Shown here in pieces: positions 8,514-37,829 of a DNA stretch of 64,000 bases. Under the pieces are notes generated by a model. It was not told the origin of the DNA. It made no database searches and was given only the letters and a program-made list of their open reading frames with translations. How positions within the stretch are numbered: the stretch's first letter is position 1; each line of letters begins with the position of its first letter. The DNA is from a virus. Both the position numbers and the translations under genes were made by a program. The DNA lies in the IMG/VR virus record IMGVR_UViG_3300029661_000108; one strand, 5' to 3'.

Positions 8514-9295
8514 GAATTTTTATAACTGGTGATACCCATGGTGATTTTTCTTCTATACATACATTTTGTGAAAAGATGAACACAACAGTAAAAGATATTT
8601 TAATCATTGTTGGAGATTCAGGAATTAATTATAATGTCAATTCCTTTCATAATTCTCAATACAGTTATGAAGATACACAAGAGAACTTATGTTTTAAAAA
8701 TTATCTGTCATATTTACCAATAACTCTATTCTGTATTCAAGGAAATCACGAGGCTCCGGCTGAACTTGTAAAAGGATATCATCTAATACAGAATGTTCAT
8801 CCACTTTTTAAAGAGCAATCTGTATTTTTACAAGATAATTATCCAAATATTCTTTTTGCAAACGAAGGTGAAGTCTATAATTTTTTAGGAAAAAGTGTTG
8901 CAATACTTGGTGGAGCGTATAGTGTTGATAAAAATTATAGAATTGAAATGAATAGAAACTGGTTCCCTGAAGAACAACCAGTAATAACTGGTAAAGATAA
9001 ATTGTTTTTAAAAAATCTAGAAACTTATAACTGGAAAGTTGATATTGTTCTTTCACACACTTGTCCATTTCACTATATGCCAACTGAAATGTTTTTAAGT
9101 GGAATTCAACAGGACCTCGTAGATAATACAACAGAGGAATTCCTTGAACATGTAGAAAAGAAATTAAATTATAAACAGTGGTATTGTGGACATTTTCACA
9201 CAGATAAAACTGTAGATAAAATAAAGTTTCTCTTCCACAATATTATTACTTTTATAGAAGATAACGAGGTACCCAATGACAAGACACAATACTAA
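8510..9295 (+). CDS. calcineurin-like metallophosphoesterase
   Basis: GDTHGD and GNHE metallophosphatase motifs. Confidence 0.7.
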   Translation: MRIFITGDTHGDFSSIHTFCEKMNTTVKDILIIVGDSGINYNVNSFHNSQYSYEDTQENLCFKNYLSYLPITLFCIQGNHEAPAELVKGYHLIQNVHPLFKEQSVFLQDNYPNILFANEGEVYNFLGKSVAILGGAYSVDKNYRIEMNRNWFPEEQPVITGKDKLFLKNLETYNWKVDIVLSHTCPFHYMPTEMFLSGIQQDLVDNTTEEFLEHVEKKLNYKQWYCGHFHTDKTVDKIKFLFHNIITFIEDNEVPNDKTQY

Positions 9296-9773
9296 AAAAA
9301 GACGAATACTTGATATTATTCCTATTATTATTTCGATTCTTCTGGTTATTGGAATTAATTTCTGTTTTCAACTGGTTTTAGTGAATGGTGATTCAATGAA
9401 TCCAACATATCAGAACAATGACTTTTTAATCTCTTCAAAAATCGCCTATAAAAACCATTCTCCTCAAAAAGGAGATATCGTGATTGTAGATGGCAAGTCT
9501 CAAGATTTAGATATAGACATCATTAAACGAGTTGTAGCAACCGCAGGTGATACTGTAGAAATTAAAAAAGGCCAACTCATTATTAATGATAAAAAAGTAG
9601 AGGAAGACTACATAGATGAAACAATGAATAAGGATATGCATAAAATAACTGTAAAGAAGAATACAGTGTTTATTATGGGAGACAACCGAAATCATAGTAT
9701 AGATTCTCGGGTTTTTGGAAGTATTCCTGTTCAGGATATCATGGGGAAAGTTATCTTTGATTTGAAATTTTAA
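9276..9773 (+). CDS. signal peptidase I (S26 family)
   Basis: N-terminal TM segment, catalytic GDSMNPT (Ser), KRVVATAGD (Lys) and GDNRNHSIDSR boxes. Confidence 0.8.
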   Translation: MTRHNTKKRRILDIIPIIISILLVIGINFCFQLVLVNGDSMNPTYQNNDFLISSKIAYKNHSPQKGDIVIVDGKSQDLDIDIIKRVVATAGDTVEIKKGQLIINDKKVEEDYIDETMNKDMHKITVKKNTVFIMGDNRNHSIDSRVFGSIPVQDIMGKVIFDLKF

Positions 9774-9774
9774 G

Positions 9775-9802
9775 AGGTATCAGAAGATACCTTTTATTTT
9801 AT
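9775..9802 (+). terminator. intrinsic terminator
   Basis: AGGTATC-agaa-GATACCT hairpin followed by TTTTATTTT, directly after the signal peptidase stop. Confidence 0.6.
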
Positions 9803-9896
9803 ATCCACTGTTAACTTAAAGTTAATTTTTATTGACTAATACCTCTTCATATGATATAATATCACTGTAAAATTTACAAAAGTGGAGTGATATTTT

Positions 9897-11537
9897 ATGA
9901 AAAAGAAAAAAGAATCGATGAAAAAAAACTCAATTATCCCATTTCTCTATGGGCTCGTTTTCATTGCTATTTATATATATTTAAGATATACAGCAGTTAC
10001 TGATGGCGTTCTTATTGCTTTTCTTCTTGTAGGCTTAATTAGCTTAGCTATCATCACATATAATCAGCTCAGAACAAATGAAATGGCTCATAGAAATGAA
10101 ATTCTTACAAATGAAGCTGTTCAGTTAACCCAAACAGCTATGCATTCTCACCCCAGCAATAGGAATGCATCTATGAAGTCAGATACTGAAAATTCTACAC
10201 CTACTCTATTTAAAGTCTACTCACCAGACAATATGAAAACAAGGATGAGTGATGTGGCTGGATGTAGTGAGGTCAAAGAAGACCTTATGGAAGTTATTGA
10301 TTTCCTTAAAAATCCTCAAAAATATAATGAAATGGGTGCACACATACCTCATGGAATTCTATTTATGGGGCCTCCTGGCACAGGAAAAACAATGCTTGCA
10401 AGAGCTGTTGCTGGTGAAGCTAATGTCAAGTATATTTATTGTTCTGGCTCAGAATTTGTAGAAAAGTTTTCTGGGGTTGGGGCTGCTCGTGTCCGCGAAT
10501 TATTTGAAGAAGCTAAAAAAGCACAGGGTCCTTGTATTATCTTTATTGATGAAATTGATGCTATTGGTGGAGCTCGTAATCTTTCTGGAAATGACGCAGA
10601 AAAAGACAAAACCTTAAATCAGTTACTAGTTGAAATGGATGGATTTGAGAAATCAAATGATATCATTGTGATTGCTGCAACAAATCGTAAGGATATGCTA
10701 GATGAAGCCCTACTGCGTCCTGGGCGTTTTGATAGACAGATTCTTGTCGGATTGCCCACAAAAGAGGAACGATTAGAAATCCTAAAAGTACATTCCAAAA
10801 ACAAGAAGGTCTCTTTGGATTTGGACTTGGAAAGTATTTCAAGAAAGACTCCAGGATTTTCGGGAGCTCAGCTTGCTGCAGTCCTTAACGAGAGTGCTCT
10901 GTTCGCTGTAAGAGAAAATAAACCATTCATTACAAATGATTTCGTGGATGAAGCAATTGATAGGGTTCTTATGGGTCCATCAAAAAAGAACAGAAAATAT
11001 ATTGATATAGAAAGAAACATCGTTGCTTATCATGAAGCTGGTCATGCTGTTGTAGGATTGACTTTGGAAAATGCTATGCAGGTTGAAAAAATCACAATCA
11101 TCCCTCGAGGTGATGCTGGTGGGTATAACTTGTTTTCTGAAAAAGAAGAGCGTTTTCTTAATACAAAAAACAGTATTCTTGCTGAAATTACTGGACTTCT
11201 TGCAGGACGTGCTGCTGAAGATTTAATGTTTAATGACATTACAAATGGAGCAACAAGTGATTTGAAACAAGCAACAAACCTAGCTAGGCGATATATCTGC
11301 CAATATGGGATGAGTCAATTGGGTCTTGTGCAAATGGACGATGTTCGAAATCTTTCTCCTCGAACATCTGAAAAGGTTGATATTGAAATCAAATCAATTC
11401 TTGATGAATGCTATTTAAAGAGTAAAGATTTATTAACTATGCATAAAAACCTTTTAGATGCCATTGCCTTGGAACTTTTGGATAAAGAAACAATTGATTC
11501 AACTCAAATTCAGAAATTGGCATGTCAGTATTGCTAG
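9897..11537 (+). CDS. FtsH-like AAA+ zinc metalloprotease (shorter than canonical FtsH)
   Basis: N-terminal TM helices, Walker [11 protein letters not shown], Walker B IIFIDEID, and M41 peptidase HEAGHAV (HExxH). SD GTGGAG precedes the ATG. Confidence 0.85.
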
Positions 11538-11908
11538 AAACTAATGTGACTTAGTGAAGCCTCTACAAACTATGTTTTGGCTTCTTTTTCATAAATATTT
11601 GCATTCTTCAACAAACTTTAGATTATAGAATAGAAATATAGAAAAATTTCCTAGTGATTTTATGTTTGAGTTATCACTTGAAGAAATAGATTAAATAAAA
11701 ATTATCAAGGTCACAAATTGTGACTTCACCAAATCACTTTCCGCAACACAAAATTCCTTTTTTATCAATAGCATAATATAATTTCTACTCTATGATATAA
11801 TATATATAGATTTTCTAATGGAGGTATATTTCTATAAATATAGAATAAAAACATAAACAAGGTTATAGTGATTTGCTATAGCCTCTTATTATAATTGGAG
11901 GTGGTTCA

Positions 11909-12376
11909 ATGCCCTATTTAGATATCGCTTTTACATTTGTTCTCTTAAGTATCTGTGCCTACACTGATACAAAGTTCAGAAAAATATATAACTGGATGAC
12001 TCTTCCCTTCATAGCTATTGGTATTCTTAATACACTCCTGCTCTATGGACCTAAAGAGGGATTCATGAATTGTCTTTGGCTAATTCCTGCCCTTATTCTT
12101 TGTATTATCGTATTTAAACTGCATCAGATTGGTGGAGGTGATGCAAAGCTTATTTTAAGTGTTGGGGCTCTTATGGGTCTGGAATACACTCTTATTATCC
12201 TTCTTATTTCCTTTATATTAGGCTGGTTCTATTCAATATATCAGCTTCTTAAAAAAAGAAATAATAAAAAAGGAGTCTTAAAGGGACATCAGAAGATTAT
12301 GATTCCTCTTGGAAGTATTATGCTGGTGGCTTTTGGGATTGTTGGGGGATTACAGGTATATTTGTTGTATTTATAA
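11909..12376 (+). CDS. A24-family prepilin peptidase-like membrane protein (CpaA/TadV-like)
   Basis: Polytopic membrane protein with an N-terminal Asp region (YTDTKFRKIYN) and the second catalytic motif GGGDAKL. Confidence 0.6.
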   Translation: MPYLDIAFTFVLLSICAYTDTKFRKIYNWMTLPFIAIGILNTLLLYGPKEGFMNCLWLIPALILCIIVFKLHQIGGGDAKLILSVGALMGLEYTLIILLISFILGWFYSIYQLLKKRNNKKGVLKGHQKIMIPLGSIMLVAFGIVGGLQVYLLYL

Positions 12377-12536
12377 AACCTAAAGAAGAAGTTTTTTACT
12401 TCTTCCTTTGTATACTTTTCTTATTTCAAATAACACAAACACAAAAGTATCGCCTCCTGGAATGGCATGTTTTTCGTTGCTAAAGATGAAACTAGGGTTG
12501 CAACAGTTATTTCAATGCGTAGAGGTGAAATTGCCT

Positions 12537-12650
12537 TTGGCTTGCAGGATAAAACCTGCCTTAAAAAAATGCTTGCCAAGTATCCTATTCATCGTTTTTG
12601 TAGATGTGACTATTAACGTTGTCTCAGAATTTTGGAGACATGAGCCATAA
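12537..12650 (+). CDS. small hydrophobic peptide (37 aa, TTG start), copy A of the duplicated cassette
   Basis: SD AGAGGTG nine nt upstream of TTG. Peptide ACRIKPALKKCLPSILFIVFVDVTINVVSEFWRHEP. Against copy B the differences are mostly synonymous third-position changes (agt/agc, atc/att, ttc/ttt, tta/ttg). Confidence 0.45.
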   Translation: MACRIKPALKKCLPSILFIVFVDVTINVVSEFWRHEP

Positions 12651-12654
12651 AAAG

Positions 12655-12680
12655 CAAGGGAGCAAAGGCTCCCTTTTTCC
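12655..12680 (+). terminator. intrinsic terminator of cassette A (possibly bidirectional)
   Basis: GGGAGC-aaag-GCTCCC followed by TTTTT. Confidence 0.6.
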
Positions 12681-12803
12681 TTGGCTTAATTATATTATAT
12701 AATGTTTTTGTTTTTTATTTATTTTTGATTGTGATTTGAAATTATCTATCTTGTAGCTTAAACTCAAGATAATAAAAAAGAGAACCCTCTCAGATTCCCT
12801 CAA

Positions 12804-13646
12804 TTAACATTTTACAAACTCGTTAAATACTCTTGTCCCCTCTTCATTTCCTAGATGATTTTTCAAACAGTCAAGCAGGTCCATTTTACTTTGATAAGCT
12901 TCAACTACATAATCACTAATAGATAATTTTTCCGCCTTTTCTTTTAACTTCCGACTTGGATACAGTCTTTTATTATTTGAATAATTTTCGAAACATTTTA
13001 GTGCCTTTTTATATTCCTTCAACTTATTTATTTGTTTTCCGTTTATTAAAAATTGAAATTCTCTATTAAATATATCCCATTTCAAATTCAATATATCATT
13101 ACGAATCTCTTCATGTCTAAGTAATATTAACTTATCATAGTTAAGCTGACCTAGTAATTGGCATAGCTCATTCTCATTTCTTATATACACTAGCATGTCC
13201 AAATCTATAAATTTTTCCAATCTCTTTATTAAGAGTGGTTCTTTTTGATAATCAGTAAGTATTTGACTAATAGATACATTAGGTATGCAGTCAATGTTGA
13301 TGCTATAATCACCTTTTAATATGTTTATGGCATCAACATATCCTTTATCTTTCGATACAATATAATACTCTTTGTTTTCTTTATATTTTAAAACCATCTT
13401 TGTTAGCTCAACAACAATACAAAAATCTAGTGAGTTCTTCTTTTGTTTACTGGCTGTATGTGTATAAAGCCCTATATTTCTATGATTCATCAATGTATTC
13501 ACACTATTAAAATCTATTTTTGCATTATTATTGCAAAAATAATAATAGTACGCATTTTTATCAATTGGAAAAGGCAATTCAAAACCTACATTTTCACAAT
13601 CAATAAAATAAACTTTCTTATATTTCTTGAATTTATTATTAAACAT
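12804..13646 (-). CDS. NYN-domain (LabA-like/PIN-like) putative nuclease with a C-terminal helical extension
   Basis: N-terminal KVYFIDCENV, then ...DFCIVVELTKM... and YYIVSKDKGYVDAINIL, matching the NYN pattern (vfiDgeNv / ivlvSgDsD). Confidence 0.55.
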   Translation of the reverse strand: MFNNKFKKYKKVYFIDCENVGFELPFPIDKNAYYYYFCNNNAKIDFNSVNTLMNHRNIGLYTHTASKQKKNSLDFCIVVELTKMVLKYKENKEYYIVSKDKGYVDAINILKGDYSINIDCIPNVSISQILTDYQKEPLLIKRLEKFIDLDMLVYIRNENELCQLLGQLNYDKLILLRHEEIRNDILNLKWDIFNREFQFLINGKQINKLKEYKKALKCFENYSNNKRLYPSRKLKEKAEKLSISDYVVEAYQSKMDLLDCLKNHLGNEEGTRVFNEFVKC

Positions 13647-13717
13647 TTACACCCTTCTTTCCATTTAAATTGCCAATTTTGGGGGCATTTCACTGCTCGT
13701 CCACACCTTGACAATGA

Positions 13718-14290
13718 TTACTTTTTATGCTCTATCCCATTTAAATTCTCTAGCTTTTTTTTCATTAGCAAAGCTGTATTATATGCATCATAAGAAGCAT
13801 GATGTTCAGTCCCCTTAAACTCTCCAAATTCCTTTTCAACAATCTGCATAAGTGATGGCAACTGCTGAAAGTTTTCCTGTTCCATGATATAGGATTGAAG
13901 GTCAATAAATGTCATCTCATTAAATTCCTTCTCGAATCCATTATCCTTACAGTTCACTCTTAAAACTGCTGAATCTCTAGGCCCCCATGATACATATAAA
14001 GTCTCTAAATTATCCTTATGAATCCATTTCAGGAATTCTTTAAAAACTTCACTAAAATTTATTGATGATAGTATTTCATCTCTTGAAACTCCTGTTAAGG
14101 ACAAGATAGAATTGGAAGGAATGTTATGAGGTTTAATGATTCTTCTGAATTTATCTCCTTCAATAATTCTTTCTCCATATCTTGTTGTATATATTTTCTT
14201 AGCTGCTAATTCAAATATTTCTGTCTTATTCCTTTCTTTTGAAAATTCTAAATCAATAACGATATATTGCCCAGCATAATCATAATTCAT
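13718..14290 (-). CDS. DEDD-family 3'-5' exonuclease (DnaQ/KapD-like)
   Basis: Exo I VIDLEF (DxE) and Exo III HHASYDAYNTALL (H-x4-D). Confidence 0.65.
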   Translation of the reverse strand: MNYDYAGQYIVIDLEFSKERNKTEIFELAAKKIYTTRYGERIIEGDKFRRIIKPHNIPSNSILSLTGVSRDEILSSINFSEVFKEFLKWIHKDNLETLYVSWGPRDSAVLRVNCKDNGFEKEFNEMTFIDLQSYIMEQENFQQLPSLMQIVEKEFGEFKGTEHHASYDAYNTALLMKKKLENLNGIEHKK

Positions 14291-14430
14291 TAATGGTTTT
14301 CTCTCCTTTCATTCTCCAAATAAAAAGAATCTACAATTGCTATGTAGATTCTTTTGTTTCGTATATATTACCCTTATATTTTACCACATATCAAAGGATA
14401 TGTACTATGTTCTTTTGAATCTCAATCAAT

Positions 14431-16620
14431 TTATAATCTTAGCATTTTTTTAAACACCTTAAACATTTCATTTGGCAAATTCTGCGGATTCTTAACACAT
14501 ACAGAGTTTTCATAAATTTGTCTAATTGAATCAAAATCAAAATTACCTAAACCAATGCCAACTGAATGGACTCGATAATGTTTTTTGAAAGTATTCATGA
14601 TTTTCTGCATATCTTCAATAGCAGATTTTCCACCATAATCATATGCGCATGGTTCGCCATCTGAAAGTATAAAGAAATAAAGGTCTTCATCAGGTTGAGA
14701 TGATTTTACCAACTCCCTTAAAGAATGAAATATAGCCAACCCATCTCGGTTATTGTCATGAGCTTTAATATGAAAGAGATTATCGAGGGTCTGAAGTTTT
14801 CGACAGTTTTGGAAAGATATATATTTCCTTATTCTAAATACTTCTGAAGAAAAATCTTCATCATGTCCATATACAGCAAATGGGATTTTCAGCTTTTGAG
14901 CAGCCTTTGCTACCATCCAGCAGCCAACGATTGCATTTTCCATTTTAGAACCTCTCATACTTCCTGATTCATCTACTAAAATGATGAATCGGACTTTTTT
15001 CTTCTCTCCAGACGTTTCCTTCTTAAAAACCTGCAAATCAGTTTTTATTCTATAAAGTCCACTCATATCTATGCTTCCTTCAAATCTGCCCTTTGATATA
15101 TCATCCTGACTTCTGTGCATAAGTATCTTTTTCATTTTTTTAGATAATTCATTCACAGACGATGATAATTCATCTTTCTTTATCATTTTTAATGCTTCTT
15201 TTCCCTCTGATGTATATTCTTCTTTCATAGAAAGAGAATCCTCCAAATCAATCATAGATACAGAAACGCTATGATGACACGCTGTCTCGCCTGCTCTTTC
15301 ATCTTCATCAGATGTAATAGAGGCTTTCTCTGCTCTATCTTTAGTCTTCTCGAAAGTTTTTGATGCTCCATCTAAAGCTTCACTCATCGAATTGATGGCT
15401 TCATCTTCTAATTCCTTTGCTGTTGGTTTTGTTCTTTCTGGAGCAGCTGATTCATCTGACTTTGAATCAGCTTCATCTTTCAGACTCTCTTTACCAAGTT
15501 CTTTTGCAGATTCTTCCATTTCCTTTTTTAAATCTTCAGGTAATCCTAAATCATATTTACTTGGAGCTGAAGATTTCATTTTAGCACCACCTCTCGCAGT
15601 GCCTCCTCCGCCCATGCTTTTGACTACTTCTGAATCAACTGAACCTGTACTTTTACTATGACTTTCTGCCTCTTTTGCCATTTTTTCCATCATCTCTTTG
15701 GCATGGTCAATATTATAAAGGTATTCATTTGTAAGATTATCTGCTATTTTATCAAGTAGTGGCTGACAAAGATTCAGTAATGCTTTGGCAGTTGCTGCTC
15801 TTTCATAGGTTGTTGGTGCTTCAAATCTTGCATATAAAGCAAGATTCTTAATCTTTTCAATATCATCATCTTCAAACAATGCATTCAATACCTGTATATC
15901 AAAATGTTTTCGATATCCAACATGTCCAAAAGCCTGTGCTTCAAAAAGCACAGCTCTTAGAGTATTGTCATCCCAATTATCCATGTCAAGGCATACATAA
16001 CCTGATTCAATGGCCTGTCTGAAAAGTTCTTTCTGCTTATCATGTCCTATATCCCTTAAAAATGTTAGGCATCCATTTTCTTCCCTTCCTTTTTCACACA
16101 TACATCTATCTACAGATAAGTCTTCATATATGTTATTGACCTCTGGCATATTAACTTTAAAAACAAAGTCTCCTACCTTTTCTCTGACAAAAGGAATTAA
16201 ATCTGCCTTATCTTCTTCCTTGGCAGAATGATAATCATTTGCTGCTTTTTCTACTTCTTTTTTAGCATCACAAAAGTCTTGGTGAAGCTGACCAATTATA
16301 TTAAAGTCTGAATAAAGCAAATGCCCAGACTCATGGTAGATGAGGGCTTTTGCAATGATATGATAATGAGATGTATCAAAGGCTTTATCTTCATAAGTCC
16401 ACAAATCTATATTCATAATAGGATTGCCATCTTTATCAAAACTTGTAAAACTGCTCCCAACCTTATCCATATAAAAGTTTAAGTTCATTCTTTTGGAAAC
16501 TATCTGAGCCAAACTCTTGAAAGAATCTTTGTACCCCTTGCTGGAAAGTAATTCTATCCCTGTTAAAATTCTTTTTTTACTTTTCTTTCCCAATAGTGAT
16601 TTCTTTGTTGGTTTCTTCAT
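14431..16620 (-). CDS. von Willebrand factor A domain protein (CobT-like), with an N-terminal HExxH motif and an acidic linker
   Basis: C-terminal vWA MIDAS ILVDESGSMRG. HESGH in the N-terminal region. Long E/K/S-rich low-complexity middle. Confidence 0.75.
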   Translation of the reverse strand: MKKPTKKSLLGKKSKKRILTGIELLSSKGYKDSFKSLAQIVSKRMNLNFYMDKVGSSFTSFDKDGNPIMNIDLWTYEDKAFDTSHYHIIAKALIYHESGHLLYSDFNIIGQLHQDFCDAKKEVEKAANDYHSAKEEDKADLIPFVREKVGDFVFKVNMPEVNNIYEDLSVDRCMCEKGREENGCLTFLRDIGHDKQKELFRQAIESGYVCLDMDNWDDNTLRAVLFEAQAFGHVGYRKHFDIQVLNALFEDDDIEKIKNLALYARFEAPTTYERAATAKALLNLCQPLLDKIADNLTNEYLYNIDHAKEMMEKMAKEAESHSKSTGSVDSEVVKSMGGGGTARGGAKMKSSAPSKYDLGLPEDLKKEMEESAKELGKESLKDEADSKSDESAAPERTKPTAKELEDEAINSMSEALDGASKTFEKTKDRAEKASITSDEDERAGETACHHSVSVSMIDLEDSLSMKEEYTSEGKEALKMIKKDELSSSVNELSKKMKKILMHRSQDDISKGRFEGSIDMSGLYRIKTDLQVFKKETSGEKKKVRFIILVDESGSMRGSKMENAIVGCWMVAKAAQKLKIPFAVYGHDEDFSSEVFRIRKYISFQNCRKLQTLDNLFHIKAHDNNRDGLAIFHSLRELVKSSQPDEDLYFFILSDGEPCAYDYGGKSAIEDMQKIMNTFKKHYRVHSVGIGLGNFDFDSIRQIYENSVCVKNPQNLPNEMFKVFKKMLRL

Positions 16621-16659
16621 AATTTCTCCTTTATATTGAAAGGGATGAAAAAATCATCC

Positions 16660-18456
16660 CTAAACTAATTCTATTGTTTCAAATTCATATTCTTTTCTGG
16701 GCATTTTAGGTTTAACGCCTGCAAATGTATTCATAATCTCATTATAAGCATAATCAATCACAGGGTCTCCTGTTGCAGTAAAGTCTTCTGGTTTATTTGA
16801 CCCCTTTACTCTATCAACTTCTTTTGATAGAGGGGCAAGTACTGTTGTAAAAGCGGCCCTTACTGGATTGTCAATATCCTTAATCTTTTTAGCCCAAGAT
16901 AGACAATTACGTAAGTCAATATTTTGTGTTGTTTCATCTCCATCATCTCTAATTTGTGTCTTGATATTATTCTTGCATTTAATAATCTTAGAAGCTAAAT
17001 CTCTATCAATACCCGTAGAGTTAACTATGATATTTGTTTCTGTCATCTCATCATACCCTGATAAATTATGCCACTCATCAACACGTGAAATATGAGACAA
17101 ATTATCTTCTTTTGTTCCTTCATACCCTATATTCATAGCTTCACAATATCTAAAATTATCATGAGCGATGATTGTTTCTCCAGTTTGAGGAATTGTATAC
17201 ATTCTTGTATCATCAAGCACATTATTTGTTGCTGAAACAACGCCTGCATTCACCATGTTTCTTTCATCAAAGAAAAAGATTCCACCATATCTCATAATTC
17301 TTGTCAATGGACCTTCACAAAATTCTGTTGTACCATCCTTAATTGTCATATATCCATATAAGTGAGATGTTTCTGTATCACTATTTCCTGTCAGAATCAT
17401 GAAAGGCAATTTTAACGCCCCTGCCATCATTTTAACGAATGTTGTTTTCCCTGATGCAGATGGACCATAGAATCCCATTTTCCAGATATTTCCGTTTTTA
17501 AAGCTTTGAATTGATTCCCATAACTCATCTGTTATTGACTCCTTATTTTTTTCAAATAAGTCCATAGCAATTTGACGAGTTCTTTGTAAATCAAGTGGTA
17601 ATTTCTTTGCTTCTGCATCAGACATTAATGAATAGTCTCTTTCAGAATATGGTACAAATACAGTTGCTGCTTTAGCCTCTTTTCCTTTTTTACTCTTTCT
17701 TTTAATAGTTGGAGCATGAATTTCCTTAACTACTTCATCCCCAATATCAAGAGATAAATCATATACATTATTGTGCATTGCAACTAAAGGAAGAATATTA
17801 TATTGGATATAAGGGGCATATTCTTCATCAATGAGTTCATCATTGTCAATCTCCTTGAAATTAAATCCATCAAATGTTTTAGCAGTAAAATATAGCGAAT
17901 CACATAAAGGCAAAAATTTCTCTGCTTCTGATGATTCGACTAAAGTTCCTGCAGTTATAGAATCATATTTTTCCTTAGGAAGATTTTTAAATTCACACAA
18001 ATATGAGAAAACTTCTCTTGCTTCATCACTTGCTTTATTTCCCTTTTTCACAAACTCTAATAAATCATATCCCAAAATCAATCTATAAAAGAGATGTGAA
18101 TAGATATTTGTAGCATAAATCATTTTATCTGCTGGAATGACTACGAATGTTTCAATAGGATTTTTCGTACCCCCAGTGAATTTACATAAAAGAAATTCCT
18201 TTTTATCCTTTTTTCCCCACGCCATAATTGTGTTTTCATCAACAATTTGCGAATCAATTACTGCTTTAGCAATTTTACTTGATAGCCTTGATACGATTTT
18301 TCCACTTGATGGTGAAGGTGTTGTATTTTTAATTGAATAAAAATGCTCATCCTCCTTGTTTGCTGTAAATTGAGTGTTTGGAATTAAACTTCCTGCATCC
18401 GTTGAAGAAAATGCCATCCTAGATGCTTGATAAATCGTTTTTTTAATTGCTGCCAT
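16660..18456 (-). CDS. AAA_5-type ATPase (MoxR/CobS-like)
   Basis: Walker A GPSASGKTT, Walker B IFFFDERN; dynein-related AAA core in the C-terminal half. Confidence 0.75.
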   Translation of the reverse strand: MAAIKKTIYQASRMAFSSTDAGSLIPNTQFTANKEDEHFYSIKNTTPSPSSGKIVSRLSSKIAKAVIDSQIVDENTIMAWGKKDKKEFLLCKFTGGTKNPIETFVVIPADKMIYATNIYSHLFYRLILGYDLLEFVKKGNKASDEAREVFSYLCEFKNLPKEKYDSITAGTLVESSEAEKFLPLCDSLYFTAKTFDGFNFKEIDNDELIDEEYAPYIQYNILPLVAMHNNVYDLSLDIGDEVVKEIHAPTIKRKSKKGKEAKAATVFVPYSERDYSLMSDAEAKKLPLDLQRTRQIAMDLFEKNKESITDELWESIQSFKNGNIWKMGFYGPSASGKTTFVKMMAGALKLPFMILTGNSDTETSHLYGYMTIKDGTTEFCEGPLTRIMRYGGIFFFDERNMVNAGVVSATNNVLDDTRMYTIPQTGETIIAHDNFRYCEAMNIGYEGTKEDNLSHISRVDEWHNLSGYDEMTETNIIVNSTGIDRDLASKIIKCKNNIKTQIRDDGDETTQNIDLRNCLSWAKKIKDIDNPVRAAFTTVLAPLSKEVDRVKGSNKPEDFTATGDPVIDYAYNEIMNTFAGVKPKMPRKEYEFETIELV

Positions 18457-18632
18457 AAATTTTCTCCTTTCTTTTCTGCTCTTTTTATCTGATATCTTTT
18501 TTCTCTCATACGTATTGTCTCCATGACTTTTGTCAAAAGAAAAAAGACTTTCTCTCTGTAGACACAGATAAAAAGTCGTTTAATAATACATATATATTTT
18601 ATCATAAATCATTTGATTTGTGATAAGTCTTT

Positions 18633-18989
18633 TTATTCTATAGAGGATTTTGAATGCTTTTGAAACATCTTTTCAAACTCCTCTCTCTTCCGATGAAGAT
18701 TTTCCTCGTCTAGCTGTTTCCATAACTCTTTTTCCTTTGAAATGCGTTCATATGCATCATTTAAAAAAAGTGCATCTGGAGACATTCCAAAATAGCGTGA
18801 GATAAGATAAGCATCATTATATGAGAGTTCATTTAACCCTCTTTCTAACGCACTCACATATTGAGGTGTTTTTCCTATAACTTTTGCAACATCAGCCTGT
18901 GTAATATTTAACCTTTTTCGCGTTTTTCTATAATGATTTAATCTTCTGCATTCCTGTAAATTCATAACTTCCCCTCCACTATCTAACAA
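18633..18989 (-). CDS. XRE-family helix-turn-helix transcriptional regulator
   Basis: HTH LNITQADVAKVIGKTPQYVSALERG. Confidence 0.7.
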   Translation of the reverse strand: MLDSGGEVMNLQECRRLNHYRKTRKRLNITQADVAKVIGKTPQYVSALERGLNELSYNDAYLISRYFGMSPDALFLNDAYERISKEKELWKQLDEENLHRKREEFEKMFQKHSKSSIE

Positions 18990-19279
18990 AATTCTATATT
19001 TGTCATTTTATGATATAATAAATATGTACCTTTAGTACGAATTGTTTTTTTGTGATTCATATGGACTTTCCCTCCCTTTTATTGAGGATAGAAATAACAT
19101 ATCAGCTTATTTTATCCTACTAGAGTTTATATCCAATCACAAGACCTATACAAATGAGTTATCTCCCTAACAAGTTTGTATATCATGTCATTGATTTGAC
19201 TTTGAAAGTAATTGATTTTAAGAGACAGCATATAATATGTCTCGTCCGAAGCCCCTCATCTAGGGGCCCTTTTTTATAT

Positions 19280-21867: not shown

Positions 21868-22770
21868 CTATCTAGAATCTGCTTTGGCTCCTTTCTTTTC
21901 TTGATTTGTTTTTTGAATGCTCTTGATAACATCTATTTTTACACAATCTGAAACATAATCCTCAATAAGAGAATTAAGTTTATCCAACGTTATATCATTA
22001 ACTGTGAGAGAATTATTCTCCAGTAACTTGTTTATTTCACATTCGGCTTTTTTCACATATGTATCAGCCAAATAAATTGCTTCTGAATACTCTATTGGTG
22101 CTGTTTTATATTTCTTAATCTTATTTTTCTCTTTTATTGATAGAAAATCAAGATTCATAAGTGATTCAAAGTTTACTTTTCCATCTAATCTAGCAACTTC
22201 TGAGACCATTTCAGATAAACGTGCAAGATGATGCAACTGCTTTGGGTTATATTTATAAATATCAAAAATTTCTTGTCCAGAATCTGTTCTCTTTTCAAGC
22301 CCCTTTCTTTTTTCATAAATAAATCCCTGCATTGACTTAACAAATCTTTTTACATCCCGATTTGAGATATCGTCTCTCATTTCCTTCAAAGATTTTAAAA
22401 ATAATAAAGTTCTAACACGTTGGTATTCCTTATTTACATAGAAATATGGGGTATATAATAACTCCAGATATGTTGGATTCATCTTATAAAGAAGATTTCC
22501 TAATAATCTAATATCTTTCACTTCAATATGACTCTTATCATTCATGACAAGTTCTTTAGAAATCATATTTGGTCTTTCAAGTAAGTCTTTAAGCGTTGGG
22601 ATAATAAAGCACTTAACATCAAAATCACTGCTATAGTCGTCAGTATATTCGTCAAAACCATAATTCTGGGAACCTTGTAAACACATAAATGCAACATGAT
22701 AATCAGTATTTTCTTTAAGCCAGTTCATTTTCTTTTTCATTTCATTTAATACCATTTGTTTTTTTGCCAT
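21868..22770 (-). CDS. predicted nucleotidyltransferase (Pol-beta-like NTase)
   Basis: GSQNYGFDEYTDDYSSDFDV, matching the G[SG]-x(9-13)-DxD minimal NTase motif. Confidence 0.5.
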   Translation of the reverse strand: MAKKQMVLNEMKKKMNWLKENTDYHVAFMCLQGSQNYGFDEYTDDYSSDFDVKCFIIPTLKDLLERPNMISKELVMNDKSHIEVKDIRLLGNLLYKMNPTYLELLYTPYFYVNKEYQRVRTLLFLKSLKEMRDDISNRDVKRFVKSMQGFIYEKRKGLEKRTDSGQEIFDIYKYNPKQLHHLARLSEMVSEVARLDGKVNFESLMNLDFLSIKEKNKIKKYKTAPIEYSEAIYLADTYVKKAECEINKLLENNSLTVNDITLDKLNSLIEDYVSDCVKIDVIKSIQKTNQEKKGAKADSR

Positions 22771-22876
22771 ATTTCTATCAATCCCCCTATCTCAAGTATT
22801 TCTTTACAACCACAATTATAACATATTATTAGATTTTAGTCAATAATATGGATTTTATTTACTTAGATAAATTATT

Positions 22877-24127
22877 TCATCTTAAAAAACCTGGTGGATG
22901 AATATCCATTCCTAACTGTGTTGAAAAATCAGAAAGTTCCTCATCTAGTAGACTATGACCATATTTTATGCTTTTTTCTCCCCACCTCTCTTTAATTTCC
23001 TGAATAATCTCCTCTAAATGCAACTGTTCATAACGGTCCTCTTCATTAGCAGTATTAAATAGACTCATCTGATACGCATAAGTTTCCTTCTCAACAAGGC
23101 TGCTGACAGATATTGAAAGACTTCTTAAAGGAATAGCCATATTCCAATTATCCCTAAGAAGAATCATTACCATATCCAAGATTTCCTGTGCTATGTTTGT
23201 AGGAGTATCTACTCGCTTTTGCCTGCTTAATCCCTGTAAATCCTTATACCTCATACCAATAGATATAACAGACCCTAGCTTATTTGATTGTCGCAATCGT
23301 TTAGCAACACTTTCTGCAAGCATTGACAGGACTATCTTTGCTTCCTCAATAGTATGTATATCATGTTTTGCTGTTATGCCATTCCCTACACTCTTTATCA
23401 CTTGCTGACTTGAATTGACTGAGAGAGTGTCATAGCCATTTGCAAACAGCCATACCATTTCACCATTCTTCCCCAGAAAACTCTTGATATATTCTTTAGA
23501 TGATAATGCTAAATCTCCTAATGTATAGATATTTCTTTCATTCAATTGTGATGATGTTGCTTTTCCTATATAAAGAATATCTGCAACGGGTAATGGAAAA
23601 ACCATATCTTTAAAATTATCTCGTGTTATCACTGCAAGCCCTTGTTTCTTATCTAAGTCACTTCCTAATTTTGCAAAAACCTTATTAAAACTTAACCCCA
23701 TCGATACTGTCAACCCAAGTTCTTTAAACACTCTTCTTTGAATCTCCTCGGCTAATTCCATAGCAGTCTTATGAAAAAGTTTTTCGGTTCCTGTAATATC
23801 AATCCAGGCTTCATCCAAGCCAAAACTTTCAACCTTATCACTATATTCTCGATAAATTCTTTTGACTTCCTCTGTATAGAATAAATAGTCATCATAATGC
23901 GGAGGAACAATTAACAGTTCTGGGCATTTCTGAAAAGCGTCTCTCAGTGATTCACCAGTTTTAATATGATACTTTTTAGCCAAATCATTTTTTGCAAGAA
24001 TAATTCCATGCCTGTCCTCTTCATGACCTCCAATAGCCATTGGAACATTTCTTAATTCTGGATACATCATTTCTTCAATCTGAGCATAGCAATGATTAAT
24101 ATCACTATGGATTATCCATCTTTCCAT
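22877..24127 (-). CDS. Y-family translesion DNA polymerase (UmuC/DinB-like)
   Basis: N-terminal IIHSDINHCYAQIE (cf. UmuC LCDVNSFYASCE) and the catalytic GLDEAWIDITG motif. Confidence 0.85.
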   Translation of the reverse strand: MERWIIHSDINHCYAQIEEMMYPELRNVPMAIGGHEEDRHGIILAKNDLAKKYHIKTGESLRDAFQKCPELLIVPPHYDDYLFYTEEVKRIYREYSDKVESFGLDEAWIDITGTEKLFHKTAMELAEEIQRRVFKELGLTVSMGLSFNKVFAKLGSDLDKKQGLAVITRDNFKDMVFPLPVADILYIGKATSSQLNERNIYTLGDLALSSKEYIKSFLGKNGEMVWLFANGYDTLSVNSSQQVIKSVGNGITAKHDIHTIEEAKIVLSMLAESVAKRLRQSNKLGSVISIGMRYKDLQGLSRQKRVDTPTNIAQEILDMVMILLRDNWNMAIPLRSLSISVSSLVEKETYAYQMSLFNTANEEDRYEQLHLEEIIQEIKERWGEKSIKYGHSLLDEELSDFSTQLGMDIHPPGFLR

Positions 24128-24240
24128 ATGTCACCCTCCTTACAATTCCATTATATATTCTTTACAGATAATGTGATTTATTATCTGTAATAATAAAACC
24201 ATTTTTTCGGTGTTAAAACAAAAAAGAGCAGCAATGCTAC

Positions 24241-24786
24241 TCACTCGTATCTATGTTTTTTCTTAGTACAATCTTTCCAGCTTCTGCTATATTGTCTTGA
24301 TATGTCGTCCCATGATGTTGGCAGGTTTTTTATTCTACCGTTTTTTAAAGATAATTTTGTATTTGGATAATTCTCCTTATATTCTCTTCTCTCCTCTTTT
24401 GAAACTATGTTCTTTAAACTATGTGTAGTGTGAGGTTTTCTATAGTGTTTATAATGATTATGTCCAATCTGAGGACAACTTTTGTATTTGCGTTTGTAAA
24501 ATTCAAGTCTTTCATTGCGGTAATTATCATAGAGTTTTTGAAGATTAATATAAGTTTTTGTATTATATTCAGCAAAAAGGAAAACTGTTCCCTTTGTACA
24601 CATGAAATAATCATCTTGAATTATAAAAAAATTATTTTTCCAAACATCTTCCCAATTTTGAAAATTTAATGTATCTGAAAATTCCCATTTACTGTCTATG
24701 ATTAATTTTCCATCTTCTGAAAATTTGTAAGTGGCAGAATAAATATCGTAAGTTTTAGCTTTATAATTTGAATGTATAGCTTTCAT
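24241..24786 (-). CDS. hypothetical protein (181 aa) with a very basic C-terminus
   Basis: ORF only. Confidence 0.35.
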   Translation of the reverse strand: MKAIHSNYKAKTYDIYSATYKFSEDGKLIIDSKWEFSDTLNFQNWEDVWKNNFFIIQDDYFMCTKGTVFLFAEYNTKTYINLQKLYDNYRNERLEFYKRKYKSCPQIGHNHYKHYRKPHTTHSLKNIVSKEERREYKENYPNTKLSLKNGRIKNLPTSWDDISRQYSRSWKDCTKKKHRYE

Positions 24787-25016
24787 ATCTTCCTCCTAAA
24801 AAAGACTATCTTTCCTTGAAAAATAGCCACTTCGTTATATATTACTATAAATAGTATATCATGATTAAAAACATATTTAATTTTATCAATATTTAATTTT
24901 ATCAACAGGTTTATTCTTATTTTTATAATTCAAGTTATACTTGAATCTATTTTATATTTATGACAAAATAAAACTACGCAGAAAAGTCATTACTCTGCGT
25001 AGAGGTGAATTAGCCT

Positions 25017-25205
25017 TTGGCTTGCAGGAGAATTATACCTGCCTTGAAAAAAAGCTTGCCAAGCATTCTATTTATCATTTTTGTAGATGTCATAGAATGT
25101 CTAACAACAAAAAACATGTCACTTATTGACACAATCGTCCTAACCTGTATTGTGGATGTGACAATTAAAGTTGTCTCAGAATTTTGGAGACATGAGCCAA
25201 AATAG
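25017..25205 (+). CDS. small hydrophobic peptide (62 aa, TTG start), copy B of the duplicated cassette
   Basis: Same SD, start and frame as copy A. Carries a 72-nt in-frame insertion that looks like a partial duplication (FVDV...IVDVTIK). Same C-terminus VVSEFWRHEPK. Confidence 0.45.
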   Translation: MACRRIIPALKKSLPSILFIIFVDVIECLTTKNMSLIDTIVLTCIVDVTIKVVSEFWRHEPK

Positions 25206-25207
25206 GC

Positions 25208-25232
25208 ATGGGAGCGAAAGCTCCCTTTTATT
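25208..25232 (+). terminator. intrinsic terminator of cassette B
   Basis: GGGAGC-gaaa-GCTCCC followed by TTTTATT. Confidence 0.6.
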
Positions 25233-25342
25233 ATATCACATTTAGAAATTTGTAATGTTTTTTTAACCTCTAAGAAATGCATATTGTATTTTTAGTGCTC
25301 ATGGAAAATTATATATATCTTCTTTTTACATTTATCAGCAAA

Positions 25343-25909
25343 TTATTTATTCTGAATGAATTGATTATCCAGGTACTTTCTTACATTTGTTGCAGACTGC
25401 TCTTGAATCTCAATAATTTGGGCACCATTTATATAGGCTATTTCTTTTAGTTCCCTACTGATTCCCGTATAATCTGATGCTCCTACTACCAATAATGTAT
25501 CTCCTTTACCTAGTTGTGAAACCATTTGTATCGCCTTGTTGTAGTTTGGTGCAATATCCCCATAAAGAATAGGTTTATCTACAAGTAATGATGCATTATC
25601 TAATTCTTCTTCATCTGGAAGTGTTCCATGTAATTCTAGGGCATCACTTCTAGCATCCTTATGTAAGCCATCAATATTCATTGTTATAATAGGAATTTTA
25701 TACTCAGCCAGAGCTATATGAGCATCATTGGGCTTTGCTTCATTCACATTCGCCTTTAATTGTTGGATAACTTCATTATATTCATCAGGAAAACTATTGG
25801 CATATTCTCTTGTCAGTTTATTTCTCAACTCTTTCTGGTTTTCAAAGGTTGGTATACCAGATTCTTGAGAAATACCTGCGCCAGTAAATGCTATTATCAC
25901 CTTTATCAC
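25343..25909 (-). CDS. SIR2-like protein lacking the Zn-ribbon module (188 aa)
   Basis: Sirtuin motifs GAGISQESGIPTF, NIDGLH and catalytic LELHGT. No CxxC...CxxC zinc module, so it is a minimal sirtuin core. Confidence 0.65.
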   Translation of the reverse strand: MIKVIIAFTGAGISQESGIPTFENQKELRNKLTREYANSFPDEYNEVIQQLKANVNEAKPNDAHIALAEYKIPIITMNIDGLHKDARSDALELHGTLPDEEELDNASLLVDKPILYGDIAPNYNKAIQMVSQLGKGDTLLVVGASDYTGISRELKEIAYINGAQIIEIQEQSATNVRKYLDNQFIQNK

Positions 25910-35951: not shown

Positions 35952-36025
35952 TGGTGTGAAAGACGGGAATCGAACCCGTATAGTTGGAGCCACAATCCAC
36001 CACACTACCATTGTGCTACAATCAC
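35952..36025 (-). tRNA. tRNA, probably His (GTG); two mismatches in the acceptor stem
   Basis: T-arm ACGGG-TTCGATT-CCCGT plus ACCA. Anticodon arm GTGGA-TTGTGGC-TCCAA read by hand. Confidence 0.45.
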
Positions 36026-36079
36026 CATCATTATTTTATAAAGCAACACGCAAAAAGTGAGTGTTCGTCATAAAATATT

Positions 36080-36154: not shown

Positions 36155-36162
36155 ATGTTTTT

Positions 36163-36236: not shown

Positions 36237-36279
36237 GCAAATATTTTCTTTTTGTTTTACAATATTTAACTTTATATTT

Positions 36280-37671: not shown

Positions 37672-37676
37672 ATTTT

Positions 37677-37751: not shown

Positions 37752-37754
37752 ATA

Positions 37755-37828: not shown

Positions 37829-37829
37829 A

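What the first reader, a model, noticed from the sequence alone, without database searches (positions are those of the whole stretch)
12804..18989. HTH, AAA_5 ATPase, vWA(+HExxH), DEDD exonuclease and NYN nuclease cluster
A co-directional minus-strand string encodes:
- an XRE regulator;
- a 598-aa AAA_5 (MoxR/CobS-like) ATPase;
- a 729-aa vWA protein with an N-terminal HESGH zinc-peptidase-like motif and a long acidic linker;
- a KapD-like DEDD exonuclease;
- an NYN-domain nuclease.

CobS/CobT-like AAA+vWA pairs are a recurrent phage module of unknown function. MoxR-vWA pairs also head NTP-dependent conflict systems. Coupling to two different nucleases and a dedicated repressor is not a combination I recognise as a named system.
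Basis: partly seen in the sequence, partly recalled or inferred. Interest (0 to 1): 0.6.

Follow-up and report, generated by a model that had tools for sequence, protein, structure and literature searches.

The report
Phage ATPase–vWA pair with incidental nucleases
The five genes are real, but only the ATPase and its vWA partner form a conserved unit, an already described and still uncharacterised phage "CobS/CobT-like" pair; the two nucleases are neighbours that come and go, so this is not a new five-gene system.

Summary
All five minus-strand genes exist at the stated coordinates, and their catalytic motifs are intact. The "NYN" protein is Pfam PIN7, with NYN-like structural neighbours.

Synteny does not support a five-gene system.
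- The AAA_5 gene lies directly upstream of the vWA gene in 85 of 89 viral loci; the other 4 are cut off at that edge.
- Among 9 clade loci (35–98% vWA identity), the DEDDh exonuclease is present only where the prepilin-peptidase/FtsH block is present (5 of 5). It is absent where that block is absent (0 of 4).
- PIN7 occurs only in the window's own phage. It looks like a ~1.3 kb insertion.
- 276 flanking genes from 122 more distant non-redundant loci gave no recurrent RNase_T or PIN family.

The pair is far below the CobS/CobT equivalog cut-offs, and the ATPase is closer to NorQ/CbbQ/midasin. A MoxR–vWA pair with an N-terminal metallopeptidase domain was already noted in jumbo phages (PMC7824862).

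An XRE regulator recurs with the HExxH-type pair: upstream in this clade, and between the two genes in 30 of 65 Firmicutes genomic loci.

Verdict: a new member of a known, uncharacterised module.

The parts
16660..18456 (-). MoxR-class AAA+ ATPase (AAA_5), 598 aa. It has a clade-specific ~310-aa N-terminal extension followed by the AAA+ core and a CbbQ_C-like lid.
   Evidence: Pfam AAA_5 E = 1e-16; phrog_249 E = 1e-29. PDB sequence matches: midasin 4e-38, CbbQ/NorQ 1e-13 to 7e-17, CobS only 6e-4. Invariant residues: Walker A G331..G336-K337-T338, Walker B D397-E398, N442, R458, R516. The N-terminal extension is conserved only in the clade loci: L001-L008 and L010, L090, L091 and L095.
14431..16620 (-). 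vWA/MIDAS adaptor protein, 729 aa. Layout: N-terminal HExxH domain (aa 1-~325), acidic linker (~330-480), C-terminal CobT_C/vWA domain (aa ~530-729).
   Evidence: Pfam CobT_C 3e-5, VWA 5e-4. The family profile matches CobT 9uka_G at 4e-14, over the linker and vWA only. Invariant: H96, E97, H100, E166, D167, and the MIDAS motif D550-x-S552-x-S554 with S653-D654-G655. The N-domain model has pLDDT 89 but no fold match.
18633..18965 (-). XRE-family HTH regulator, 110 aa from the ATG at 18965 (the ORF extends to a TTG at 18989). It is conserved upstream in the clade, but 0-5 genes can lie between it and the ATPase gene.
   Evidence: HTH_3 E = 1e-13. GGAGGGG ribosome-binding site before the ATG. Orthologs at 46-60% identity in L003-5, L007, L008, L090, L091 and L095; spacing to AAA_5 ranges from ~160 bp to 4.1 kb.
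18596..18624 (-). Promoter-like site with an extended -10 (TGATAAAAT), between the HTH and ATPase genes.
   Evidence: Consensus scan, (ATCACA-17-TAAAAT with TG); sequence read. This is a consensus match only.
13718..14290 (-). DEDDh 3'-5' exonuclease (KapD / PolC-exo / ERI1-like), 190 aa. It is a neighbour, not part of the conserved module.
   Evidence: RNase_T 2e-10; NCBIfam PRK06722 3e-14; KapD 7e-12, below cut-off. D13, E15, D106, H163 and D168 are invariant. Its presence tracks the A24/FtsH block.
14323..14355 (.). 13-bp-stem hairpin between vWA and the exonuclease. It is preceded by a TGGTAAAAT extended -10-like element at 14386-14378. This may mark a transcription-unit boundary.
   Evidence: Pattern-level evidence only.
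12804..13646 (-). PIN7 (NYN-like PIN-fold) putative nuclease, 280 aa, with a C-terminal domain of unknown function. It is a lineage-specific insertion.
   Evidence: PIN7 8e-10. D16, E18, N19, N71, D74 and D100 are invariant among 11 relatives. Only 72 relatives among 1.84 billion representatives. It is absent from every other locus that carries the pair. In L003 the exonuclease and A24 stop codons are 19 bp apart.
12778..12801 (-). Intrinsic-terminator-like hairpin with a T-run, directly after the PIN7 stop codon.

Best explanation
The functional unit is two genes, not five.

**The pair.** It consists of a MoxR-class AAA+ ATPase (16660-18456) and a vWA/MIDAS adaptor (14431-16620). The adaptor also carries an N-terminal HExxH...E-D metal site and an acidic linker. 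The pair belongs to the widespread viral 'CobS/CobT-like' module, in the HExxH-bearing subfamily.

**Inferred mechanism.** This is by analogy with CobS-CobT, NorQ-NorD, CbbQ-CbbO, RavA-ViaA and midasin.
- The ATPase forms a ring.
- The vWA protein docks on it and uses its MIDAS site to grip an acidic residue or peptide of a client protein.
- ATP hydrolysis remodels or releases the client.
- The HExxH domain probably cuts it.
- The client is unknown. It could be a phage or a host protein complex.

**The other three genes.**
- The upstream XRE protein is most likely a local transcriptional regulator of this early-gene block, loosely associated with the pair.
- The DEDDh exonuclease is an independent nucleic-acid-metabolism gene of the phage backbone. 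It travels with the prepilin-peptidase/FtsH/signal-peptidase block.
- PIN7 is a recently inserted stand-alone gene with its own terminator.

**Shown versus inferred.** Shown: domain content, intact motifs, and which genes co-occur. Inferred: ring formation, MIDAS-client binding, proteolysis, and the regulator's target.
For: **The pair is tightly linked.**
- AAA_5 lies immediately upstream on the same strand in 85 of 89 viral loci; the other 4 are truncated there.
- An AAA_5 core is detected in 68 of the 85 loci scanned. It is paired with vWA in 65 of the 80 genome-scan loci.
- The gap in the window is 39 bp.

**Motifs are intact.** Across N-domains of 12-44% identity, the only invariant residues are H96, E97, H100, E166 and D167.

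**Relationship to known families.**
- The vWA profile matches CobT at 4e-14 over the linker and vWA.
- The ATPase matches midasin, CbbQ and NorQ.

**The nucleases are not linked.**
- Clade table: the exonuclease occurs in 5 of 5 loci with A24/FtsH and 0 of 4 without.
- L008 has a reverse transcriptase and a dNK gene on the opposite strand between vWA and the exonuclease.
- PIN7 occurs only in L001/L002, which are the same phage.
- No RNase_T or PIN family recurs among flanking genes. PADLOC gives nothing for the ATPase (above noise), vWA or PIN7.

**Separate transcription signals.** Promoter-like and hairpin elements lie before the exonuclease, and a terminator lies after PIN7.

**Prior descriptions.** PMC7824862, PMC8651126, PMC10638138.
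Against: - No experiment or expression data exist. Transcription units rest on consensus patterns only.
- About half of the viral partners (46 of 89) lack HExxH, although their N-domain is homologous (hhalign 94.8%). Proteolysis cannot be the universal activity of the module.
- The exonuclease is adjacent to vWA in three of the clade's lineages (window, L003-type, L095). A lineage-specific functional link is therefore not excluded.
- Neighbour tests looked at only 1-2 genes on each side by Pfam, and at +/-10 kb only by jackhmmer from single seeds.
Confidence: 0.62

Rival explanations
1. All five genes form one regulated conflict or anti-defence system. The MoxR-vWA-peptidase pair senses or activates, the DEDDh and PIN nucleases act as effectors, and the XRE protein acts as repressor.
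For: - The genes are co-directional, with a terminator only after PIN7.
- All catalytic residues are intact.
- The exonuclease is adjacent to vWA in three clade lineages.
- MoxR-vWA pairs head conflict systems in bacteria (PMC7159879).
- A phage MoxR ATPase gene was needed to overcome a defence system in Bas54 (bioRxiv 10.1101/2025.11.20.689424).
Against: - PIN7 is absent from every other locus that carries the pair.
- The exonuclease tracks the A24/FtsH block. It is missing in L007, L090 and L010, and separated from vWA in L008.
- No nuclease family recurs next to 122 non-redundant distant pairs.
- PADLOC has no matching system.
- The Kaur et al. systems are ternary, with VMAP, iSTAND, double-FtsH or beta-propeller components and effectors fused C-terminally to vWA. 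None of these is present here.
Confidence: 0.06
2. The pair is a genuine cobaltochelatase CobS/CobT. It would be an auxiliary metabolic gene pair that hijacks host CobN to boost cobalamin synthesis, as proposed for viral cobST.
For: - PHROG and GenBank annotations read 'porphyrin/cobalamin biosynthesis'.
- The CobT_C domain and acidic linker match CobT.
- The hypothesis is stated in PMC8651126.
Against: - NCBIfam equivalog scores are 18 bits against a cut-off of 559 (CobS) and 26 against 759 (CobT).
- The ATPase is far closer to midasin, CbbQ and NorQ than to CobS (4e-38 and ~1e-17 against 6e-4).
- The N-domain, with its invariant HExxH, does not match CobT's N-terminal region.
- The likely hosts are anaerobic gut Firmicutes. 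Whether they encode CobN was not tested.
Confidence: 0.06
3. The pair is a virion-assembly chaperone and protease acting on structural proteins. This is the proposal of Iyer et al. 2021 for jumbo phages, by analogy with ATV p618/p892.
For: - PMC7824862.
- A MoxR-like ATPase was detected in a purified Staphylococcus jumbo-phage preparation (PMC10638138).
- This is a special case of the best explanation, with a specific client.
Against: - In this clade the pair sits among replication, repair and early-type genes: topoisomerase, DinB, and DnaE in relatives. No structural genes were seen in the 64 kb window.
- In Firmicutes genomes the same subfamily is flanked by PcfK, SSB, RadC, AbrB-type and sigma-factor genes. 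That pattern suggests conjugative or integrated elements rather than virion modules.
Confidence: 0.15
4. The XRE protein, ATPase and vWA-HExxH protein form a three-part switch. The XRE protein would be the client: an AAA+-assisted metalloprotease would cleave or remodel the repressor. This is functionally analogous to ImmA/ImmR or IrrE/DdrO pairs.
For: - An XRE HTH_3 gene lies upstream in all 8 clade lineages with enough sequence.
- It lies between AAA_5 and vWA in 30 of 65 Firmicutes genomic loci. Ten of these were verified as HTH_3 by Pfam.
Against: - No HTH_3 appears next to 67 more distant viral pairs.
- In the clade, up to 5 genes separate the HTH from the ATPase gene.
- The 30 loci may be one element family, and so a single evolutionary event.
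- There is no sequence or fold similarity to the M78/ImmA family.
- XRE genes are ubiquitous in mobile elements.
Confidence: 0.1

Closest known systems
Viral 'CobS/CobT-like' pair: MoxR AAA+ ATPase plus vWA protein with an N-terminal metallopeptidase domain. Described in Iyer et al. 2021, Viruses 13:63, for group 2.2 jumbo phages, and in Liu et al. 2021, PLoS Biol, as the viral cobST cluster.
   Same: - Gene order: AAA_5 then vWA.
- N-terminal HExxH domain, acidic linker and C-terminal MIDAS vWA.
- Located in large phages.
- phrog_249, phrog_1576 and phrog_5298 match.
- Homologous loci in IMG/VR.
   Different: - Only 20-37% identity to other viral members.
- The ATPase has a clade-specific ~310-aa N-terminal extension.
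- An XRE gene is associated with it.
Aerobic cobaltochelatase CobS-CobT (PDB 9uka and related entries; bioRxiv 10.64898/2026.07.21.739949)
   Same: An AAA+ motor plus an adaptor with an acidic linker and a C-terminal vWA/MIDAS domain. The profile matches CobT at 4e-14.
   Different: - Far below the equivalog cut-offs.
- The CobT N-terminal region is not matched.
- An HExxH site is present here.
- No CobN partner is seen in the window.
NorQ-NorD, CbbQ-CbbO and midasin: MoxR-class AAA_5 remodelling machines with vWA/MIDAS partners
   Same: These are the best sequence matches of the ATPase core. A weak CbbQ_C-like lid is present. The working logic, a MIDAS site gripping a client that the ring then remodels, is the model adopted here.
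   Different: The clients of those systems (nitric-oxide reductase, Rubisco, pre-60S particles) are irrelevant to a phage. Their vWA partners lack an HExxH domain.
MoxR-vWA-centric ternary conflict systems (Kaur, Burroughs, Iyer, Aravind 2020, eLife 9:e52696)
   Same: A MoxR plus vWA core. The idea of regulated effector deployment.
   Different: - No VMAP, iSTAND, double-FtsH-AAA or beta-propeller third component.
- No effector fused C-terminally to vWA.
- This is a phage, not a multicellular bacterium.
- The nearby FtsH is a canonical single-AAA M41 protease on the opposite strand.

Membership tests
Viral CobS/CobT-like (MoxR-vWA) pair, HExxH subfamily | The AAA_5 ATPase gene lies immediately upstream of, and co-directional with, the vWA gene. 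| tested here: met
   39-bp gap in the window. The same arrangement holds in 85 of 89 viral loci.
Viral CobS/CobT-like (MoxR-vWA) pair, HExxH subfamily | The vWA protein has an N-terminal HExxH domain, an acidic linker and a C-terminal MIDAS (DxSxS) vWA domain. | tested here: met
   H96-E97-x-x-H100, E166-D167, D550-x-S-x-S554. 43 of 89 viral partners share the HExxH N-domain.
Viral CobS/CobT-like (MoxR-vWA) pair, HExxH subfamily | The N-terminal domain has a metallopeptidase fold. | tested here: inconclusive
Cobaltochelatase CobS/CobT (orthologs) | Scores above the NCBIfam equivalog cut-offs TIGR01650 and TIGR01651. | tested here: not met
   18.4 bits against 558.6, and 26 bits against 759.
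Cobaltochelatase CobS/CobT (orthologs) | A CobN large subunit is available in the element or its host. | not tested
   No CobN-like gene was noticed among the window ORFs scanned. The host genome is unknown.
MoxR-vWA ternary conflict systems (Kaur et al. 2020) | A third conserved component: VMAP, inactive STAND, a protein with two FtsH-type AAA domains, or a beta-propeller fused to vWA. | tested here: not met
   The flanking genes are XRE, DEDDh and PIN7. The FtsH at 9897-11537 has one AAA domain plus M41, lies on the opposite strand, and is absent from L007, L090 and L010. VMAP was not searched for with a dedicated model.
Known anti-phage defence systems (PADLOC-DB v2) | Significant matches of the core proteins to a defined system. 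| tested here: not met
   Only generic HTH and DEDDh hits were found. There was nothing for vWA or PIN7, and only a noise-level AbiLi match for the ATPase.
KapD 3'-5' exonuclease | Score above the NF005838 equivalog cut-off, with DEDDh residues present. | tested here: not met
   45 bits against 169. DEDDh residues are present. It is therefore KapD-like but not a member.
PIN7 / NYN-like PIN-fold nucleases | Pfam PIN7 above the gathering score, with conserved acidic residues. | tested here: met
   39.8 bits against 34. D16, E18, D74 and D100 are invariant. MARF1 NYN domains appear among the probability-1.00 structural neighbours, with weak E-values.

The most novel reading that the evidence does not exclude
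XRE regulator, MoxR ATPase and vWA-HExxH protein form a conserved three-part switch of Firmicutes phages and integrated elements. The AAA+ ring and MIDAS adaptor would present the XRE repressor, or another regulator, to the HExxH site. This would be an ATP-driven analogue of the ImmA/ImmR anti-repressor logic. In this phage lineage the switch might additionally control the downstream exonuclease and PIN7 genes.
Probability: 0.1. Interest if true: 0.6.

Novelty: new member of a known kind. Interest (0 to 1): 0.27.

Why it matters
The viral CobS/CobT-like pair is one of the most widespread phage gene pairs with no tested function. It is routinely mis-annotated as 'porphyrin/cobalamin biosynthesis'.

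This analysis does not reveal a new system, but it sharpens the picture in four ways.
- The unit is two genes.
- The family splits into two homologous flavours. One has an HExxH...ED site under very strong constraint. The other has that site substituted.
- The ATPase is closer to NorQ/CbbQ/midasin than to CobS.
- In Firmicutes elements an XRE regulator recurs with the pair.

It also removes a false lead: nucleases as effectors of the pair.

Tried and rejected
- **Nucleotide search against deposited phages:** no match.
- **Single-protein pattern scans of IMG/VR** with the ATPase and PIN7: no relatives.
- **Second large-database protein search with the vWA alignment:** returned the same 7 proteins, so it was wasted.
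- **PIN7 family scan of the genome collection:** failed because no stretch was conserved enough.
- **Shared operator motifs in the five intergenic regions:** none beyond ribosome-binding-site and AT-rich words.
- **Rfam on the whole window:** only tRNAs.
- **DnaQ-like proofreader hypothesis.** I considered that the exonuclease might proofread for a phage DnaE. DnaE occurs in relatives L003 and L010, but none lies in this 64 kb window. The idea is left open.
- **FtsH-type ternary system.** I considered it because an FtsH gene lies nearby. I rejected it because that FtsH is a canonical single-AAA M41 protease, on the opposite strand, and not co-conserved with the pair.

Full report
**1. Observation.**

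Pfam, PHROG and NCBIfam confirm the domain content:

| Gene | Best family matches |
|---|---|
| HTH | HTH_3, 1e-13 |
| ATPase | AAA_5, 1e-16; phrog_249 'porphyrin biosynthesis', 1e-29; weak CbbQ_C lid |
| vWA protein | CobT_C, 3e-5; VWA, 5e-4, on the C-terminal third |
| Exonuclease | RNase_T, 2e-10; KapD model 7e-12, but 45 bits against a 169-bit cut-off |
| Fifth protein | PIN7, 8e-10 |

- HESGH is at residues 96-100, and an acidic linker follows the N-domain.
- The HTH more likely starts at the ATG at 18965, which has a GGAGGGG ribosome-binding site. This gives 110 aa, as gene callers found on identical contigs.
- 'NYN' is formally PIN7. However, its motifs and its probability-1.00 structural neighbours are NYN-like. 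These neighbours are the MARF1 NYN domains plus 2qip, an uncharacterised Vibrio protein, all with weak E-values.
- Catalytic residues are intact and invariant among relatives in all four enzymes:
  - ATPase: Walker A, Walker B, sensor and arginine residues.
  - vWA protein: HExxH, E166-D167 and the MIDAS motif DxSxS.
  - Exonuclease: DEDDh residues D13, E15, D106, H163, D168.
  - PIN7: D16, E18, D74, D100.

**2. Context.**

The window is 30% GC and carries a 23-tRNA array. It holds many accessory genes:
- topoisomerase and metallophosphatase;
- signal peptidase I, FtsH and prepilin peptidase;
- RlaP, DinB, SIR2 and flotillin;
- a RepA_N initiator and ParA/ParB;
- RecD2-like, RecJ-like and Clp-like proteins.

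No virion genes lie in these 64 kb. The identical ATPase is on record in 166 blocks of the metagenome collection, on contigs of up to 0.2-1 Mb. This points to a large phage or phage-plasmid-like element. A 43%-identical relative lies on a contig binned with Candidatus Massilimicrobiota, family Erysipelotrichaceae. That is a clue to the host, not proof.

**3. Which genes belong together?**

*Within the clade.* I collected relatives of the vWA protein at 35-98% identity and fetched their contigs. Synteny is summarised here:

| Locus (vWA identity) | HTH to ATPase | Exonuclease | PIN7 | A24/FtsH block |
|---|---|---|---|---|
| Window phage, L001 | adjacent | adjacent to vWA | present | present |
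| L003 (49%) | 2 genes inserted | adjacent | absent | present |
| L004 (49%) | adjacent | adjacent | absent | present |
| L095 (43%) | 5 genes inserted | adjacent | absent | present |
| L008 (35%) | adjacent | separated by a reverse transcriptase and a dNK gene, both on the opposite strand; adjacent to A24 | absent | present |
| L007 (46%) | 2 small genes inserted | absent | absent | absent |
| L090 (52%) | adjacent | absent | absent | absent |
| L091 (46%) | adjacent | absent (short contig) | absent | absent |
| L010 (37%) | no HTH | absent | absent | absent; divergent DnaE upstream |

- The exonuclease is present in 5 of 5 loci that have the A24/FtsH block and in 0 of 4 that lack it. It belongs to that backbone block, not to the ATPase-vWA pair.
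- PIN7 occurs only in the window's own phage.
- In L003 the exonuclease and A24 stop codons are 19 bp apart. PIN7 plus ~430 bp of non-coding DNA therefore looks like a ~1.3 kb insertion.

*More distant loci.* An alignment-based scan found 226 relatives in IMG/VR, of which 80 loci were kept. It found 211 relatives in bacterial genomes, again with 80 loci kept.
- AAA_5 lies directly upstream of vWA in 85 of 89 viral loci. The remaining 4 are truncated there.
- jackhmmer from the window's exonuclease, PIN7 and HTH found no homolog within +/-10 kb of any distant viral pair.
- Pfam on the two downstream neighbours of 67 non-redundant viral loci (126 proteins) gave no RNase_T and no PIN. The top families were SPL, Band_7, HNH_3 and Metallophos.
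- Pfam on 119 upstream neighbours gave no HTH_3.
- Pfam on 150 neighbours of 55 non-redundant genomic loci gave AbrB/MazE-type regulators, sigma-70 region 4, PcfK, SSB and RadC. No RNase_T or PIN appeared among the recurrent families.
For the exonuclease it is met outside one phage backbone.

*Transcription signals.* Sequence-level hints agree, though they are weak.
- The ATPase-vWA gap is 39 bp.
- An extended -10-like promoter precedes the ATPase gene.
- A similar element plus a 13-bp hairpin precedes the exonuclease gene.
- A terminator follows PIN7.
- No shared operator-like motif links the intergenic regions.

**4. What the pair is.**

- The vWA family profile matches solved CobT at 4e-14, but only across the linker and vWA domain.
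- The ATPase matches midasin AAA domains (4e-38) and CbbQ/NorQ (7e-17 to 1e-13) much better than CobS (6e-4).
- Both proteins are far below the CobS/CobT equivalog cut-offs: 18 against 559 bits, and 26 against 759 bits. They are CobS/CobT-like, not orthologs.

*The N-domain.*
- The model of vWA residues 1-330 is confident (pLDDT 89, pTM 0.85). It shows a three-stranded sheet followed by the helix that carries HExxH.
- That motif is compelling. Among 14 N-domains of 12-44% identity, the only invariant residues are H96, E97, H100, E166 and D167.
- 43 of 89 viral partners carry this HExxH domain. The other 46 lack the motif.
- The two N-domain types are nevertheless homologous (hhalign probability 94.8%, E = 5e-8). 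The second type has substitutions at the metal-site positions.
- The core activity of the module therefore cannot depend on proteolysis. The HExxH flavour probably adds it.

**5. Prior knowledge.**

- Iyer et al. 2021 reported a MoxR AAA+ plus vWA pair in group 2.2 jumbo phages, with an N-terminal metallopeptidase fused to vWA. They proposed a virion-assembly role (PMC7824862).
- Liu et al. 2021 documented the cobST cluster across tailed viruses and proposed hijacking of host CobN. They noted that cyanophage cobT is often annotated as a peptidase (PMC8651126).
- A Staphylococcus jumbo phage has an adjacent AAA ATPase and 'metallopeptidase' gene pair. A MoxR-like ATPase was detected in its virion preparation (PMC10638138).
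- A transposon screen found a MoxR ATPase gene of phage Bas54 to be required against one predicted defence system (bioRxiv 10.1101/2025.11.20.689424).
- The bacterial MoxR-vWA conflict systems of Kaur et al. are ternary and have defining third components (PMC7159879). Those components are absent here.
- I found no experimental work on the function of the phage pair.

**6. The regulator.**

An XRE gene is conserved upstream of the pair in every clade lineage with enough sequence. However, it stays next to the upstream 215-231-aa gene, while 0-5 genes can be inserted between it and the ATPase gene.

Independently, 30 of 65 Firmicutes genomic loci have a small XRE protein encoded between the ATPase and vWA genes. 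These loci come from Blautia, Lachnospiraceae, Ruminococcus and others. Ten of the proteins were verified as HTH_3. Those loci may be one element family. Distant viral pairs have no such neighbour. The association is real but of uncertain depth.

**7. Mechanism adopted.**

- Shown: a tightly linked, motif-intact AAA_5 ATPase and MIDAS-vWA protein with a conserved metal site.
- Inferred from CobST, NorQD, CbbQO, RavA-ViaA and midasin (established knowledge; for the summary):
  - The ATPase forms a ring that docks the vWA adaptor.
  - The MIDAS site grips a client peptide.
  - ATP hydrolysis remodels the client.
  - In this flavour the HExxH site probably cleaves it.
- The client is unknown.
- The exonuclease and PIN7 are independent genes: one for backbone nucleic-acid metabolism, one a recent insertion.

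**8. Verdict.**

- The five-gene-system interpretation is not supported.
- The conserved part is a new, divergent member of an already described but functionally untested phage module.
- Interest is modest. The most novel reading still open is an XRE-ATPase-vWA-peptidase switch, at about 10%.

Noticed in passing
window 9276-12376 (+ strand): Three membrane-protease genes lie in a row, convergent with the cluster: signal peptidase I (S26), a full-length FtsH (AAA + M41), and a type IV prepilin peptidase (A24). The block is conserved in relatives L003-6, L008 and L095, and the exonuclease travels with it. A phage carrying this trio is unusual.
   Followed up: partly
window 35952-40073 (- strand): An array of 23 tRNA genes: ARAGORN finds 23, and Rfam finds 23 matches above the gathering score.
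   Followed up: no
window 41400-43112 (-), 53963-55947 (+): A RepA_N replication initiator with an internal HTH, plus a ParA/ParB-like pair. This is plasmid-type maintenance in a phage-like element. No virion genes were seen in the 64 kb, so it may be a phage-plasmid or another large extrachromosomal element.
   Followed up: partly
window 12377-12803: About 430 bp lack a convincing ORF. The stretch is bounded by strong hairpins (12385-12405, and 12656-12675 with a G+C-rich stem). There is no Rfam match. Together with PIN7 it looks like an insertion relative to L003, where the exonuclease and A24 stop codons are 19 bp apart.
   Followed up: partly
window 18983-19060 (- strand): A 25-codon ORF (MNHKKTIRTKGTYLLYHKMTNIEFC) with a strong AAGGGAGGG ribosome-binding site lies just upstream of the HTH gene.
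   Followed up: no
L104-L170 (30 genomic loci, e.g. L105 7851-12052): In Lachnospiraceae, Blautia, Ruminococcus and related genomes the gene order is AAA_5, small XRE HTH_3, vWA(HExxH). Neighbours include AbrB/MazE-type regulators, sigma-70 region 4, PcfK, SSB and RadC. This suggests integrated conjugative elements or prophages.
   Followed up: partly
L013-L089 (IMG/VR loci): 46 of 89 viral vWA partners lack HExxH, yet their N-domain is homologous to the HExxH type (hhalign 94.8%). The substitutions fall at the metal-site positions. Their neighbours are enriched in DNA-photodamage repair genes (spore photoproduct lyase in 8, Pyr_excise, UvdE) and in SPFH/Band_7 (8).
   Followed up: partly
L004/L005 2800-4323; L008 4924-6132; L003 18740-22070: Mobile insertions occur in relatives. 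An IS605-type TnpA + TnpB lies upstream of the HTH. A reverse-transcriptase gene lies between vWA and the exonuclease. A DnaE polymerase gene is split by a GIY-YIG endonuclease gene.
   Followed up: no
window 21868-25909 (- strand): RlaP-like nucleotidyltransferase, DinB-type Y-family polymerase and a SIR2-domain protein lie a few kb upstream of the cluster. A flotillin/SPFH gene is at 31269-32726.
   Followed up: no
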